DNA of 59,004 bases from an archaeon (GTDB lineage: Archaea; Nanobdellota; Nanobdellia; Woesearchaeales; GCA-2686295). The position numbers and the translations under genes are program-made. Where the stretch lies: the NCBI GenBank assembly GCA_043817405.1, contig JBDRGV010000036.1, forward strand, positions 1 through 59,004, given 5' to 3'. Below the pieces are notes generated by a model. That model saw only the letters and a program-made list of their open reading frames with translations. It had not been told where the DNA came from and did no database searches. Positions 9,683 through 52,217 of the stretch are shown piece by piece. The number at the start of each line of letters is the position of its first letter. Within the stretch, counting starts at the first letter, position 1.

Positions 9683-9728
9683 AAGTAATTTAGAAAACTT
9701 TTTTAAATGAACTGTGAATATCTGACTC

Positions 9729-9799
9729 TATGCCTCCGCAAACAAAAATCAGAAAAGATTTTTGGGCGTCGCCATTTTTTGCGGAAAAAGGCAAAATAT
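9729..9799. repeat. Copy of the tRNA-Thr 5' end (TATGCCTCCG) plus a palindromic hairpin insert with a GGGCGTCGCC core, directly upstream of tRNA-Thr
   Basis: TATGCCTCCG occurs at 9729-9738 and again at 9797-9806. Between the copies lie 58 nt with outer stem CCGCAAA/TTTGCGG, inner hairpin AAAAATC-AGAAAA-GATTTTT, and GGGCGTCGCC. This is related to the elements at 45941 and 51936. Confidence 0.6.
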
Positions 9800-9872
9800 G
9801 CCTCCGTAGCATAGTAGCTATTGCGGCAGCCTTGTAAGCTGCAGGTCGTGGGTGCAATTCTCATCGGAGGCT
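9800..9872 (+). tRNA. tRNA-Thr (anticodon UGU), with non-canonical T and D loops
   Basis: Hand fold: acceptor GCCTCCG/CGGAGGC, anticodon arm GCAGC-CTTGTAA-GCTGC, T arm GTGGG-TGCAATT-CTCAT, discriminator T. A T6 run follows. The T loop reads TGC where TTC is expected, and the D loop lacks the GG pair. Confidence 0.7.
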
Positions 9873-9873
9873 C

Positions 9874-29927: not shown

Positions 29928-30605
29928 ATGAATAAAATATTGTTAGTTGTTCTGATTGTTTTAGGGGTTCTAGTTGTAAGTGTTGCAGCAATAGGAATAA
30001 TGTCAGCATCAAGGGTGAAGTTTGAAAAGCCCGCTGTTTACTTATATCCAGAATCAGATTCTATAATTGATGTAAAAATTGAAACAACCGGAGATATTAT
30101 TGTAAGCGAGCCAGATTATAACAATGGATGGAATGTGTTTGTAACCCGGGAAGGAGAGATTGAAGGAACATATGATTATTTGTTCTACGAAGTTGAATTT
30201 AAAAAGAAAATAGAGTTAGAAAATGAAGGATGGGTTGTTCCATACAATGAACTAGAAGAGTGGATGGACACAGTCTTGTTTGACCTGGGTTTAAATGAGA
30301 AAGAACAAAGTCAGTTCAAAGAATACTGGATAAACAGATTACCAAAAGCAAATTATTACGAGATAAAACTATTGAGTCAGGAATTCTTAAAAGAAGAAAT
30401 GGATTTAATAATAACTCCAGAGCCAGACACGATTTTAAGATTAAATTTCTACTTCAAAGCTTTGAAAGAAACGCTCAGCAGTGAAACTGCTGGCGCGCCC
30501 AAAGATGAACTTTTGAGCGAAACAAGCCTTGAAGAACCAAAAATAAACACTCCAAGCAGAGAAGGATTCACAGTTGTCGAATGGGGCGGAGTATTAGAAA
30601 AGTAA
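29928..30605 (+). CDS. N-terminally anchored extracytoplasmic hypothetical protein
   Basis: N-terminal TM ILLVVLIVLGVLVVSVAAIGI. I recognise no catalytic motif. Confidence 0.55.
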   Translation: MNKILLVVLIVLGVLVVSVAAIGIMSASRVKFEKPAVYLYPESDSIIDVKIETTGDIIVSEPDYNNGWNVFVTREGEIEGTYDYLFYEVEFKKKIELENEGWVVPYNELEEWMDTVLFDLGLNEKEQSQFKEYWINRLPKANYYEIKLLSQEFLKEEMDLIITPEPDTILRLNFYFKALKETLSSETAGAPKDELLSETSLEEPKINTPSREGFTVVEWGGVLEK

Positions 30606-45814: not shown

Positions 45815-45940
45815 AAACGACGGTCACAACAAAATGCAAAGCATTTTGAGTTCCAAAAACCTTTCGGTTTTTGTTATTTCCGTCGAGACCATTGTGCTCC
45901 CTTCGGTCACAATGCAAAAGCATCAAAAGATAATCTGTAG
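45815..45940. other. Structured intergenic region with several hairpins and an internal direct repeat
   Basis: CGACGG (45818-45823) can pair with CCGTCG (45880-45885), enclosing hairpins AAAATGC-AAA-GCATTTT and CAAAAACC-TTTC-GGTTTTTG. CATTGTG-(11 nt)-CACAATG follows. The motif CGGTCACAA..AATGCAAAGCAT occurs twice. Confidence 0.3.
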
Positions 45941-46053
45941 AAGAAAATATGGGGACGCCGGGACGCTCAAAACGTTTTTCGTTTTGGCGCGCCAAAAATG
46001 TTTCATTTTTGAGCGTTTGAAAAATCCCTAGTCCAATATTTTCAAAGAAAATA
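45941..46053. repeat. Copy of the tRNA-Phe 3' end and flank (23 nt), a 52-nt GGCGCGCC-centred palindrome and a degenerate T-arm remnant, directly next to tRNA-Phe
   Basis: AAGAAAATATGGGGACGCCGGGA occurs at 45941-45963 and 46045-46067. The palindrome CGCTCAAAACGTTTTTCGTTTTGGCGCGCCAAAAATGTTTCATTTTTGAGCG is at 45964-46015. TTTGAAAAATCCC follows, then the hairpin ATATTTTC-AAA-GAAAATAT. Confidence 0.7.
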
Positions 46054-46127
46054 TGGGGACGCCGGGATTTGAACCCGGGACCACTAGATCTTCAGTCTAG
46101 TGCTCTCCCAGTCTGAGCTACGTCCCC
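46054..46127 (-). tRNA. tRNA-Phe (anticodon GAA)
   Basis: Hand fold of the reverse complement: GGGGACG TA GCTC AGACTGGGA GAGC A CTAGA CTGAAGA TCTAG TGGTC CCGGG TTCAAAT CCCGG CGTCCCC A. All stems are Watson-Crick, G37 is present, and CCA is not encoded. Confidence 0.95.
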
Positions 46128-46152
46128 AAATAAACAAAAAAATATGAAAAAA

Positions 46153-51786: not shown

Positions 51787-51935
51787 CTGTAAACTCGTTA
51801 GTTACTTTATAAGGTATTACTATATAAATTTTTTTATTATAGAATGATAAATACCCTGACAAAAAAGATAGTATTACAATATTTAGAACAAAGGAATGTT
51901 TATTTTAAAACTATTGAGAAGAAAAAAAAGAAAAG

Positions 51936-52043
51936 TGGAGATGCTGAGACGCTCAAAAATCAAAGATTTTTGGCGCGCCAAAAATAAGAAATATTTTTGA
52001 GCGTTCGAAGAATCTCAAGTCACAATTTTTTCTAAAGAAAAAA
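51936..52043. repeat. Copy of the tRNA-Trp 3' end (14 nt, 1 mismatch), a 54-nt GGCGCGCC-centred palindrome and a degenerate T-arm remnant, directly next to tRNA-Trp
   Basis: TGGAGATGCTGAGA at 51936-51949 matches TGGGGATGCTGAGA at 52044-52057. The palindrome CGCTCAAAAATCAAAGATTTTTGGCGCGCCAAAAATAAGAAATATTTTTGAGCG is at 51950-52003. TTCGAAGAATCTC follows, then the hairpin ATTTTTTC-TAAA-GAAAAAAT. Confidence 0.7.
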
Positions 52044-52166
52044 TGGGGATGCTGAGATTCGAACTCAGATCGGCCGGTATCACCAAATAGTGAAAGTCAT
52101 TGGACGGAGTCCTCATCGCTCCATTTTTTGGAGCCGGCAATTCTGGCCAGGTTATACTACATCCCC
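52044..52166 (-). tRNA. tRNA-Trp (anticodon CCA) with a ~49-nt intron at the canonical 37/38 position
   Basis: Hand fold: acceptor GGGGATG/CATCCCC, anticodon stem GCCGG...CCGGC, loop CTCCAA|intron|A, T arm CTGAG-TTCGAAT-CTCAG, discriminator A. The intron (about 52079-52127) starts AAAATGGAGC, and TGGAGC pairs with the anticodon region GCTCCA. The D stem has one mismatch. Confidence 0.8.
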
Positions 52167-52217
52167 AAATTAACTAAAATGTAAAACATAGAAAAAGTTG
52201 TGATATTTAAAGTTAAC

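What the first reader, a model, noticed from the sequence alone, without database searches (positions are those of the whole stretch)
45941..46067. The tRNA-Phe 3' end is duplicated 104 nt away, with a 52-nt GGCGCGCC-centred palindrome inserted in a degenerate T-loop copy
The 23-nt string AAGAAAATATGGGGACGCCGGGA occurs at 45941-45963 and again at 46045-46067. The second copy is the real tRNA-Phe 3' end on the minus strand: T-stem 3' strand, acceptor 3' strand, discriminator, and 9 nt of flank.

The first copy is followed directly by CGCTCAAAACGTTTTTCGTTTTGGCGCGCCAAAAATGTTTCATTTTTGAGCG. This has a 9-bp outer stem, two inner A/T hairpins, and an all-GC octamer at the centre of a very AT-rich locus. 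TTTGAAAAATCCC comes next. With the palindrome removed, the copy reads CCGGGA|TTTGAA..TCCC, which looks like a T arm whose loop carries the palindrome. An 8-bp hairpin ATATTTTC-AAA-GAAAATAT then abuts the tRNA end.

No gene model explains this, and the two ORF-track ORFs across it look spurious. The same layout occurs at tRNA-Trp and a related one at tRNA-Thr, so all three tRNAs in the window carry such an element.

Possible explanations (inference):
- a miniature non-autonomous integrative element or att scar that uses tRNA 3' halves;
- a palindromic MITE-like element that targets the conserved T-loop sequence and survives only when a tRNA part is duplicated;
- a functional 3' trailer or processing structure.
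Basis: partly seen in the sequence, partly recalled or inferred. Interest (0 to 1): 0.78.

Follow-up and report, generated by a model that had tools for sequence, protein, structure and literature searches.

The report
Mobile DNA hairpin beside archaeal tRNAs
A 52-base double-hairpin DNA element, apparently mobile and undescribed, from tiny DPANN archaea sits in a spare, folded-back copy of the tRNA-Phe gene's 3' end, so the real gene stays intact.

Summary
The 23-nt repeat is exact and the GGCGCGCC palindrome is real. tRNA-Trp has the same layout. tRNA-Thr has a mirrored, degenerate version at its 5' end.

Three corrections apply.
- The palindrome folds as two tandem hairpins. 26 hairpins from 13 copies have different tips, all Watson-Crick.
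- The "degenerate T arm" is a 23-nt inverted copy of the repeat. The layout is gene end, inverted copy, TTCAAA, palindrome, direct copy.
- The element is not specific to the T loop.

The window is a Woesearchaeota-like DPANN archaeon. The same element occurs in four other DPANN assemblies:
- behind tRNA-Tyr, tRNA-Ala and a tRNA called Gln;
- behind a 16S rRNA 3' end;
- inside tRNA introns;
- inside a tRNA-Gly-like gene at position 59/60 with no duplicate;
- inside a ~270-nt repeat;
- alone in spacers.

In this window a 48-nt copy is an exact 16-codon in-frame insertion in a conserved protein. Orthologous sites in relatives are empty.

Best reading: a selfish palindromic insertion element of the REP/RPE kind. 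It survives at essential RNA genes only inside a fold-back duplicate of the gene end. How the duplication arises is inferred, not shown. A relative splices to the distal copy, which hints at a route to T-loop introns.

The parts
46054..46127 (-). tRNA-Phe(GAA), intact and without an intron; CCA is not encoded
   Evidence: ARAGORN 46053-46128; Rfam tRNA, 72.5 bits
46045..46067 (-). Repeat copy 1: tRNA positions T60-A73 plus 9 nt of native trailer (part of the real gene)
   Evidence: Exact 23-mer; 0 expected by chance
46022..46044 (-). Inverted (reverse-complement) copy of the repeated unit A57..trailer. It forms a long hairpin with either direct copy
   Evidence: Local alignment to the reverse complement of the repeat: 19 identities over 24 columns, score 26 against 10.7 +/- 2.3 in 2000 shuffles; DNA fold
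46016..46021 (-). Direct copy of T-loop positions 54-59 (TTCAAA), immediately 5' of the palindrome
   Evidence: Sequence; the same piece occurs in the Trp, Gln, Tyr and L036 Phe copies
45964..46015 (.). 52-nt double-hairpin palindromic element ('pal'), inserted at tRNA position 59/60 of the distal copy
   Evidence: Hairpins of 8 and 7 bp; 26 hairpins in 13 copies covary
45941..45963 (-). Repeat copy 2 (distal): T60-A73 plus 9 nt, followed by the downstream flank
45830..45873 (.). Two single hairpins of the same CAAAA-tip-TTTTG type, in the spacer after the 732-aa gene
52043..52167 (-). tRNA-Trp(CCA) with a 49-nt intron
   Evidence: ARAGORN with introns allowed; sequence
52034..52060 (-). tRNA-Trp repeated unit, copy 1 (G57 to trailer +10)
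52010..52033 (-). Inverted copy of the tRNA-Trp repeated unit
   Evidence: Score 31 against 11.9 +/- 2.7 in shuffles
51950..52003 (.). Second pal copy (54 nt). It is preceded in tRNA sense by TTCGAA (52004-52009), again at position 59/60
51928..51949 (-). Distal copy of the tRNA-Trp 3' end, with 2 mismatches in the 14-mer (decaying)
9730..9792 (+). Mirror-image element in the tRNA-Thr 5' leader: outer copy of leader and acceptor 5' strand (9730-9738), degenerate half-pal (9737-9783), inverted piece GCGGAAAAAGGC (9781-9792, read by eye). The real tRNA is at 9800-9873
   Evidence: The inverted piece is not significant on alignment. Orthologous sites L048 and L050 lack it
30472..30519 (+). 48-nt pal-like copy: an exact 16-codon in-frame insertion (SSETAGAPKDELLSET) in the conserved protein encoded at 29928-30605

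Best explanation
The GGCGCGCC-centred palindrome ('pal') is a small non-coding insertion element that acts at the DNA level. It consists of two inverted, REP-like hairpin units. It is shared by several DPANN archaeal lineages, and nothing like it turned up in four literature searches.

It inserts without a target-site duplication, usually just 3' of an AAA. It persists wherever it does no harm: spacers, tRNA introns, a dispensable tRNA gene, and even in frame in a protein.

At essential single-copy RNA genes (tRNA-Phe and tRNA-Trp here; tRNA-Tyr, tRNA-Ala, a tRNA called Gln and 16S rRNA elsewhere) it is seen only in one stereotyped arrangement. In that arrangement the gene end is present three times: the real end, an inverted copy, and a distal direct copy that carries pal.

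I infer that this direct-inverted-direct structure arises by hairpin-mediated template switching (fold-back synthesis) around the palindrome and the native hairpins (T arm and trailer). I also infer that only such rearranged alleles survive, because they keep an intact gene. The distal copy and pal then need no cellular function.

Shown: the element family, its hairpin structure, its insertion polymorphism, its copy inside a protein gene, and the anatomy of the triplication.
Inferred: the transposition enzyme, the order of events (duplication first or pal first), and the fold-back mechanism.
For: **It is a mobile DNA insertion.**
- The 48-nt copy at 30472-30519 equals a 16-residue insertion absent from all 11 aligned homologs of a conserved ~208-aa family.
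- The tRNA-Phe element is present in the window and in the relative with 81% GlyRS identity (L036). It is absent at the syntenic site in L037, L042, L044 and L047.
- The tRNA-Trp element is absent in L036, L037, L039 and L043.
- The tRNA-Thr element is absent in L048 and L050.

**It is a family shared across DPANN.** Copies occur in Woesearchaeota, Pacearchaeota and Nanobdellati assemblies and in metagenomes. One Woesearchaeota MAG carries it inside a ~270-nt repeat present on five contigs.

**Hairpin structure.**
- 26 hairpins have perfect Watson-Crick stems in 24 cases (7-9 bp) and 25 distinct tips.
- The variable parts hold 79 pairs against 10.5 +/- 3.6 in shuffles, with no G-T pairs seen.
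- This pattern fits palindromy kept at the DNA level.

**Enrichment at stable-RNA gene ends.**
- 6 of 13 distinct canonical loci lie in a copy of a stable-RNA gene end. My rough estimate is that about 1% of a genome is such territory.
- The tail 14-mer recurs 85-97 nt downstream in 7 distinct tRNA cases among the 24 ARAGORN calls in the held loci, and never upstream.

**The inverted copy is real.** It scores above all 2000 shuffles for window Phe, window Trp and L036 Phe. For the 16S case 0.006 of shuffles reach its score.

**pal can hit position 59/60 without a rescuing duplicate when the gene is dispensable.** This is seen in the L042 tRNA-Gly(CCC)-like gene, whose T stem keeps 3 of 5 pairs. 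The whole gene is missing in relatives.

**No partner genes nearby.** None of the 30 window ORFs scanned is an integrase or transposase, so the copies are non-autonomous.
Against: - No transposase was identified, so mobility rests on insertion polymorphism alone.
- No pal-free direct-inverted-direct triplication was found. The order of events is therefore open, and 'duplication first, pal second' has no observed intermediate.
- The spacing between repeats is very uniform (about 100-110 nt). This holds even in two tRNA-Trp cases whose ~80-nt cargo is not pal and which have no inverted copy (L044, L045). That pattern hints at a more specific process than random template switching.
- The tRNA-Phe element is conserved between the window and L036 far better than the surrounding spacer. 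The change is compensated, and both extra copies track the tRNA's own acceptor substitution. That looks like constraint or gene conversion, which a purely junk element does not predict.
- In the Gln, Tyr and Ala cases the inverted copy is only 7-9 nt long.
Confidence: 0.5

Rival explanations
1. Intermediate in intron turnover. The distal copy is an alternative 3' exon. The stretch from T-loop position 60 of the real gene to the end of pal can be removed by the archaeal splicing endonuclease. Loss of the proximal end turns the arrangement into a tRNA with a T-loop (59/60) intron, and loss of the distal part gives back an intron-less gene. Under this view pal belongs to the intron world rather than being a free transposon.
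For: - In L039/L040 (66% GlyRS identity) the only good tRNA-Phe 3' end is the distal one. Removing 136 nt at 59/60 gives a perfect cloverleaf.
- The fold there shows T stem, 3-nt bulge, UUCA:UGAA helix and a further helix.
- The removed piece starts with a decayed look-alike of the 3' end, which ARAGORN even calls as the end. It also contains a pal-like double hairpin.
- L046 has a pal-like module in its 37/38 intron and a second intron at 53/54.
- tRNA-Phe intron positions differ among close relatives.
- In the window, the pal end UGAG-CG|U60 could pair with U54-A57 next to the T stem.
Against: - Folding tRNA-Phe 1-59 + pal + 60-73 keeps pal's two hairpins. It forms neither the T stem nor a bulge-helix-bulge.
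- The tRNA-Ala (56/57) and 16S cases offer no such pairing.
- The tRNA-Trp distal copy already has acceptor mismatches.
- This view does not explain the inverted copy, the copy in a protein gene, or the copies in spacers.
Confidence: 0.2
2. Functional structured leader or trailer. The inverted copy, pal and the distal end form an RNA (or a DNA site for a conserved protein) that the cell uses. Possible roles are transcription termination, 3'/5' processing, masking the tRNA end, or production of a small RNA that mimics the tRNA end or the anti-Shine-Dalgarno sequence.
For: - The conserved arms are identical or nearly so across distant DPANN lineages, while the tips covary.
- The window and L036 tRNA-Phe elements are conserved although the neighbouring spacer is not. 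Both extra copies follow the tRNA's C>T acceptor change.
- In L009 the only long T run follows the distal copy.
- In tRNA-Thr the native TATA-like box lies upstream of the outer copy, so the module is transcribed in the leader.
Against: - The element is absent from the same genes in close relatives.
- It is present in a protein-coding frame, in introns and in random spacers.
- The tRNA-Trp distal copy is decaying.
- No Rfam family matches at gathering score.
- No G-U pairs were seen in the hairpin stems, which is unusual for a selected RNA structure.
Confidence: 0.15
3. Integrase att scar, or a miniature integrative element. A tyrosine recombinase that uses the T arm as its core site integrated DNA carrying a tRNA 3' segment. 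The roughly 80 nt between the repeats is what remains of that DNA.
For: - The repeat begins inside the T loop and runs past the tRNA end. This is the classic signature of elements integrated in tRNA genes (PMC9897764; PMC3293823; the T-loop class of Williams 2002 is from my own knowledge).
- L039/L040 carry about 7 kb of toxin-antitoxin, Bro-N and WYL genes downstream of tRNA-Phe.
- L044 and L045 show the same repeat geometry with other cargo.
Against: - There is no integrase and no ORF between the repeats.
- The same palindrome comes with six different gene-specific repeats, including a 16S end and a tRNA 5' end. A carried attP cannot provide that.
- The inverted copy is not a product of conservative site-specific recombination.
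- No second copy of the tRNA end bounds the L039 island.
Confidence: 0.1

Closest known systems
Rickettsia palindromic elements (RPE; Ogata et al. 2000, from my own knowledge)
   Same: Short palindromic selfish DNA in a reduced, AT-rich genome. It inserts in frame into protein-coding genes as well as RNA genes and spacers, without destroying them.
   Different: RPEs are 100-150 bp and bacterial, and they have no known link to duplicated gene ends. pal is 48-57 nt and archaeal. No sequence relation was tested.
REP / BIME / REPIN elements mobilised by RAYT (Y1 HUH) transposases, and IS200/IS605-derived palindrome-associated elements (from my own knowledge)
   Same: The unit is an imperfect palindromic hairpin, and the replicating unit is an inverted pair of such hairpins. 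There is no target-site duplication. There is a preferred short flanking motif (here AAA^). The elements are non-coding, multi-copy and intergenic.
   Different: No RAYT or TnpA gene was found in the window. The two hairpins abut through a shared GGCGCGCC. The association with triplicated RNA-gene ends is not a REP feature.
GC-cluster mobile palindromes of yeast mitochondria (PMC4478555; only the title and abstract start were seen)
   Same: GC-rich palindromic mini-elements scattered in a very AT-rich genome.
   Different: They are eukaryotic organelle elements, reported with a short target duplication (from my own knowledge). No tRNA-end duplication is known for them.
Partial tRNA gene copies left by elements that integrate in tRNA genes (PMC9897764), and the mobile-element model of tRNA intron gain and fragmentation (Sugahara et al. 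2012, PMC3293823)
   Same: A complete and a partial tRNA copy lie in direct orientation. The repeat starts inside the tRNA and runs to or beyond its 3' end. One of the copies may carry an intron-like insert.
   Different: Those repeats flank 2-120 kb of element DNA with a recombinase. Here they flank 81 nt with no gene, plus an inverted copy.
Inverted-repeat-mediated direct-inverted-direct triplications and palindrome-driven fold-back duplications (DUP-TRP/INV-DUP; hairpin-capped breaks; from my own knowledge)
   Same: The topology is A - A' - A, with turn-arounds at pre-existing hairpins or inverted repeats.
   Different: These are known at kb-Mb scale in eukaryotes. Here the scale is about 25 nt, the structure recurs at RNA gene ends, and the mechanism was not tested.
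Non-canonical archaeal tRNA introns (bulge-helix-bulge, for example at position 59/60; PMC3239211, PMC4090602)
   Same: The position in the T loop is the same. A relative (L039) appears to splice there.
   Different: In the window pal lies in a non-functional copy and is not predicted to form the motif.

Membership tests
tRNA-integrating element (att duplication) | Direct repeat made of a tRNA 3' segment that starts in the T or anticodon loop and reaches or passes the 3' end | tested here: met
   23-nt repeat covering T60-A73 plus 9 nt; seven analogous cases
tRNA-integrating element (att duplication) | Element body with an integrase/recombinase gene between the repeats | tested here: not met
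   81 nt lie between the repeats, with only spurious ORFs of 75 aa or less. No recombinase among 30 window ORFs
tRNA-integrating element (att duplication) | The element carries its own copy of one specific tRNA segment (attP) | tested here: not met
   The same palindrome is paired with the host gene's own sequence at Phe, Trp, Tyr, Ala, a tRNA called Gln, and 16S
MITE | Short non-coding element that is present or absent at orthologous sites | tested here: met
MITE | Target-site duplication flanking terminal inverted repeats | tested here: not met
   The in-frame insertion is exactly the element's 48 nt. No flanking duplication in L042 or at the other copies
REP/REPIN or IS200/IS605-derived palindromic element | Hairpin-forming imperfect palindromes, often as inverted pairs, with no target duplication | tested here: met
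   Two inverted hairpin units; covariation; no target duplication
REP/REPIN or IS200/IS605-derived palindromic element | Conserved short motif at the insertion or cleavage site | tested here: inconclusive
   By my count on the flanks printed and the later sequence calls, one flank reads [C/G/A]AAA^ in 10 of 13 copies. The genome is AT-rich and the orientation of a palindrome is ambiguous
REP/REPIN or IS200/IS605-derived palindromic element | Cognate Y1 HUH transposase (RAYT/TnpA) in the genome | not testable with these tools
   None among 30 ORFs of the 59-kb window. The rest of the genome is not available
Archaeal bulge-helix-bulge intron | Lies in a functional RNA gene, and its removal restores the mature RNA | tested here: not met
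   In the window pal lies in the distal copy, and the real tRNA-Phe is intact. The feature is met only for the 136-nt insert of the relative L039
Archaeal bulge-helix-bulge intron | Helix, 3-nt bulge, 4-bp helix, 3-nt bulge, helix at the borders | tested here: not met
   The fold of tRNA 1-59 + pal + 60-73 shows only pal's own hairpins. A partial motif (T stem / CGU / UUCA:UGAG) can only be drawn by hand
Rickettsia-type palindromic element (by behaviour) | In-frame insertion in a conserved protein gene that leaves the reading frame open | tested here: met
   16 extra residues in ORF 29928-30605 compared with 11 homologs
Split or permuted tRNA gene | Separate 5' and 3' pieces whose leader and trailer pair to form a splice motif, with no intact gene | tested here: not met
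   Intact tRNA-Phe and tRNA-Trp genes are present
Any described RNA family (Rfam 15) | Match at gathering score | tested here: not met
   Only tRNA and rRNA matches (plus one RT-16 RNA in L019) in the window and 15 loci

The most novel reading that the evidence does not exclude
The direct-inverted-direct triplication of an RNA gene end around a mobile palindrome may be a DNA-level birthplace of archaeal T-loop introns. Once a distal 3' exon exists, transcripts can mature either at the proximal end or by endonuclease splicing to the distal one. Decay of the proximal end would then fix a new intron at 59/60, as in L039. Loss of the distal part would restore an intron-less gene. If so, a selfish hairpin element drives the very fast intron turnover seen in DPANN tRNA genes. 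This would be a third mechanism of tRNA intron gain, beside integration of mobile elements and intron transposition.
Probability: 0.2. Interest if true: 0.8.

Novelty: new variant of a known kind. Interest (0 to 1): 0.6.

Why it matters
Small palindromic selfish elements are well known in bacteria and organelles. I found no description of one shared by DPANN archaea (four literature searches).

This family is short, easy to recognise and conserved across lineages, so it could serve as a marker of gene flow among these uncultured symbionts.

It has practical consequences for annotation:
- It breaks assemblies.
- It creates false ORFs.
- It hides tRNA genes from standard finders.
- It adds 16 residues to a real protein.

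The stereotyped triplication of tRNA and 16S rRNA ends shows how a tiny genome with single-copy essential RNA genes can tolerate insertions into them.

Together with the relative that splices to the distal copy, it offers a concrete and testable route by which archaeal tRNA introns at non-canonical positions could arise and disappear. That is a long-standing open question.

Tried and rejected
**Bulge-helix-bulge intron at the pal borders.** I drew this by hand for Phe, Trp, Ala and 16S. Only a partial motif is possible, and only in the 59/60 cases. The fold of the hypothetical interrupted tRNA does not form it.

**Other RNA classes.** I considered a ribozyme or riboswitch-like three-way junction, a K-turn, and an integron attC site. 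The joining strands are not conserved, there are no consensus motifs, and Rfam finds nothing.

**Primer-binding site for a retroelement.** The copy lacks the TGG needed to pair with CCA, and it includes gene flank, so it derives from DNA or pre-tRNA rather than mature tRNA.

**tRNA-like minihelix formed by the distal copy.** A 4-bp acceptor-like pairing exists for Phe but not for Trp.

**CRISPR-like or casposon-like duplication.** The repeat is interrupted by pal in the 16S case, and there are no terminal inverted repeats of that kind.

**Simple tandem duplication.** The sequences after the two copies differ beyond about 9 nt, and the cargo is not repeated.

**Viral origin.** The scan of viral contigs gave only two chance matches.

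**Bacterial hits.** Those from the genome and metagenome scans are chance matches in GC-rich or unrelated contexts.

**Assembly artefact.** The same layout occurs in independent assemblies from different studies. The repeat is also far shorter than the k=141 suggested by some contig names.

**Repeats bounding the L039 island or following the 23S end.** I searched for a second copy of the tRNA-Phe end bounding the 7-kb island in L039, and for a duplicate of the 23S 3' end in L019. Neither exists.

**Inverted copy in the non-pal cases.** None is present in L044 or L045.
Full report
**1. What is in the window**

The 23-mer AAGAAAATATGGGGACGCCGGGA occurs exactly twice, at 45941-45963 and 46045-46067. 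Shuffles give none by chance. ARAGORN and Rfam place tRNA-Phe(GAA) at 46053-46128 on the minus strand. The second copy is therefore tRNA positions T60-A73 plus 9 nt of trailer.

Between the copies, in tRNA sense, lie:
- a 23-nt stretch (46022-46044);
- TTCAAA (46016-46021);
- the 52-nt palindrome 'pal' (45964-46015).

GGCGCGCC occurs three times in this 35% G+C window against 0.04 expected.

The second full copy of the palindrome (51950-52003) lies behind a tRNA-Trp that carries a 49-nt intron. Only an intron-aware run finds this tRNA. The intron marks the organism as an archaeon. GlyRS homologs place it among Woesearchaeota/Nanoarchaeota-type DPANN.

**2. Anatomy, corrected**

*Two hairpins, not one long stem.* The palindrome is two tandem hairpins, CGC(T)CAAAA-tip-TTTTGGCG and CGCCAAAA-tip-TTTTG(A)GCG.
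- In 13 copies from different loci, 24 of the 26 hairpins have perfect 7-9-bp Watson-Crick stems. Two have a mutated closing base.
- 25 of the 26 tips are distinct.
- The variable parts hold 79 pairs against 10.5 +/- 3.6 in shuffles. No G-T pair was seen.
- The ortholog L036 changed CGC to CAC and GCG to GTG in hairpin 1. This keeps the two-hairpin fold but breaks the long cruciform.

- For window Phe, window Trp and L036 Phe it aligns to the reverse complement of the repeat with 19-21 identities over 23-26 columns.
- All three scores lie above every one of 2000 shuffles.
- The DNA fold shows the resulting long hairpin.

The layout is therefore: real gene end (A), inverted copy (A'), T-loop 54-59, pal, distal direct copy (A from position 60).

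The inverted copy reads GGGATTT, the complement of an uninterrupted AAATCCC. It was therefore templated from a sequence without pal.

At tRNA-Thr the same topology appears at the 5' end, in mirror image: outer copy 9730-9738, a half-degenerate pal at 9737-9783, and an inverted piece at 9781-9792. The inverted piece was read by eye and is not significant on alignment.

**3. The element elsewhere**

One pattern scan each of species-representative genomes and of metagenomes found true copies only in DPANN archaea.

Five further cases show the same arrangement next to stable-RNA genes:
- a tRNA called Gln in a Nanobdellati MAG (L009);
- tRNA-Ala in Pacearchaeota UBA284 (L015, insertion at 56/57);
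- tRNA-Tyr on a 1.07-Mb contig (L018);
- tRNA-Phe in L036;
- a 16S rRNA 3' end in a groundwater contig (L019).

In L019 pal splits a 34-nt duplicate of the 16S end 10 nt before its terminus. The spacer there is again an inverted copy (0.006 of shuffles reach its score).

Other copies are:
- solitary, in spacers (L016, L021, L023, L028; one search finds no convincing ORF across them);
- in arrays (L025);
- inside a ~270-nt repeat present on five contigs of one Woesearchaeota MAG, often at contig ends.

Six of 13 distinct canonical loci lie in a copy of a stable-RNA gene end. My estimate is that such territory is about 1% of a 1-Mb genome. Among the 24 ARAGORN tRNA calls in the held loci (some loci repeat the same site), the 3'-terminal 14-mer recurs 85-97 nt downstream in seven distinct cases and never upstream.

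**4. Evidence that pal is a DNA insertion**

*A copy inside a protein gene.* The third GGCGCGCC site (30472-30519) is a diverged 48-nt pal inside ORF 29928-30605. That ORF belongs to a conserved family of about 208 residues. Aligned with 11 homologs, the window protein has exactly 16 extra residues at this spot. This is an in-frame insertion of the element's own length, with no target duplication.

*Empty orthologous sites.* Synteny (GlyRS, SSB-like protein, tRNA-Phe, 738-aa gene) allowed comparison of orthologous sites.
- The tRNA-Phe element is shared with the 81% relative L036. It is absent in L037, L042, L044 and L047.
- The tRNA-Trp element is absent in L036, L037, L039 and L043.
- The tRNA-Thr element is absent in L048 and L050. 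In the window, the stretch that aligns by eye with L048's promoter region lies upstream of the outer copy.

*A hit without a duplicate.* In L042 a pal copy sits at 59/60 of a tRNA-Gly(CCC)-like gene with no duplicate. Removing it gives an ARAGORN call with a T stem of 3 of 5 pairs. The whole gene is missing at the same site in relatives. This looks like a hit on a dispensable gene.

*No partner gene.* None of the 30 window ORFs scanned is a transposase or integrase.

*Flank preference.* By my count on the printed flanks (and later sequence calls), one flank of pal reads [C/G/A]AAA in 10 of 13 copies.

**5. Links to introns**

- In L039/L040 the proximal tRNA-Phe 3' end is decayed, and a perfect one lies 136 nt further on.
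- Removing that stretch at 59/60 gives a flawless cloverleaf.
- The fold shows T stem, 3-nt bulge, UUCA:UGAA and a further helix. The stretch contains a pal-like double hairpin.
- L046 has a pal-like module in its 37/38 intron and a second intron at 53/54.
- Intron positions in tRNA-Phe differ among relatives: none, D loop, 37/38, 53/54, 59/60.

A duplicated end can therefore become the functional one, with the intervening DNA turned into an intron. In the window itself, however, pal is not predicted to form a splice motif, and the real genes are intact.

**6. Interpretation**

The best-supported reading is a selfish palindromic insertion element. Its closest relatives by behaviour are REP/REPIN and Rickettsia palindromic elements. 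At essential single-copy RNA genes it is seen only inside a direct-inverted-direct triplication of the gene end, which leaves an intact gene.

I infer that the triplication arises by hairpin-mediated template switching. My reasons are that its turn-arounds coincide with pre-existing hairpins (trailer hairpin, T arm, pal) and that the inverted copy accompanies pal but not the two non-pal cases. The order of events and the enzyme are unknown.

Several observations do not fit a pure-junk view:
- the strikingly uniform spacing of about 100-110 nt, also seen with unrelated ~80-nt cargo at tRNA-Trp in L044 and L045;
- the good conservation of the window and L036 tRNA-Phe elements, with compensated changes;
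- the way both extra copies follow the tRNA's own acceptor substitution.

These points keep the functional-RNA and intron-turnover readings alive.

The integrase-scar reading explains the T-loop start of the repeat (PMC9897764, PMC3293823). It fails on the absence of a recombinase, on the gene-specific repeats at six different genes, and on the inverted copy.

**7. Novelty**

Four literature searches found no description of this element or of triplicated tRNA ends in DPANN. The nearest published idea is that mobile-element integration causes intron gain and tRNA fragments. I rate the finding as a new variant of a known kind. The intron-birth reading is the more novel possibility, and it remains unproven.

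Noticed in passing
window 29928-30605 (insertion at 30472-30519): A conserved DPANN/CPR protein family of about 208 residues with no Pfam match. It carries a 16-residue in-frame insertion (SSETAGAPKDELLSET) encoded by a diverged pal copy. Hairpin 1 of that copy has changed to CAGCAGT/ACTGCTG and keeps full pairing.
   Followed up: yes
window 52043-52167 (-): tRNA-Trp(CCA) with a 49-nt intron is missed by default ARAGORN and by Rfam at gathering score. Relatives have 44-53-nt introns at the same place, and L039 has an extra insert in the D region.
   Followed up: partly
window 9743, 10264, 15262, 24630, 36550, 40792, 45830, 45854: Single hairpins CAAAA(A)-2-4 bp-loop-TTTT(T)G, all in spacers. 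Several lie 16-18 nt after a stop codon, but some lie between divergent genes. They look like monomers of the pal hairpin, or bidirectional T-run terminators.
   Followed up: partly
L007 3440-3720; L008, L010, L002, L006 contig ends (Woesearchaeota JACQMS01): A ~270-nt highly structured repeat (AATAAAGAAATTGCC...CCCAATTTTGAAATAA) that contains pal. It is present on at least five contigs with different flanks and often ends the contig. It is MITE-like or a multi-copy small-RNA gene.
   Followed up: partly
L044 3880-4040 and L045 3700-3860: tRNA-Trp in two relatives has an exact duplicate of its 3' end about 100-110 nt downstream. The cargo of roughly 80 nt is hairpin-rich but is not pal, and there is no inverted copy. 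The same geometry thus occurs with other inserts.
   Followed up: partly
L046 6700-7000: tRNA-Phe with two introns: one at 37/38 that holds a pal-like double hairpin, and a 32-nt one at 53/54. An array of pal-type hairpins lies upstream of the gene. ARAGORN finds no tRNA here.
   Followed up: partly
L039/L040 12050-19150: About 7 kb of ParE toxin, MazE, WYL, Bro-N and APH genes inserted between tRNA-Phe and the conserved 746-aa gene. It looks like an island at the tRNA, but no second copy of the tRNA end bounds it.
   Followed up: partly
L025 2290-2490: Three double-hairpin modules in tandem, two of them diverged (CGCTGAACAG...; AGCTCAGAAAC...). They lie in one spacer of a contig from the same metagenome (Ga0180007) as contigs L022 and L027, which are identical to the window.
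   Followed up: no
L019 6831-7038 (-): Rfam RT-16 RNA (a motif associated with reverse transcriptases) lies on the same contig as the 16S-linked pal copy.
   Followed up: no
window 9690-9800: The TATA-like box of tRNA-Thr, identified by eye from comparison with L048, lies upstream of the outer 5' copy. The real tRNA would then have a structured leader of about 68 nt that RNase P must remove, unless a second promoter lies in the T-rich stretch at 9774-9780.
   Followed up: partly
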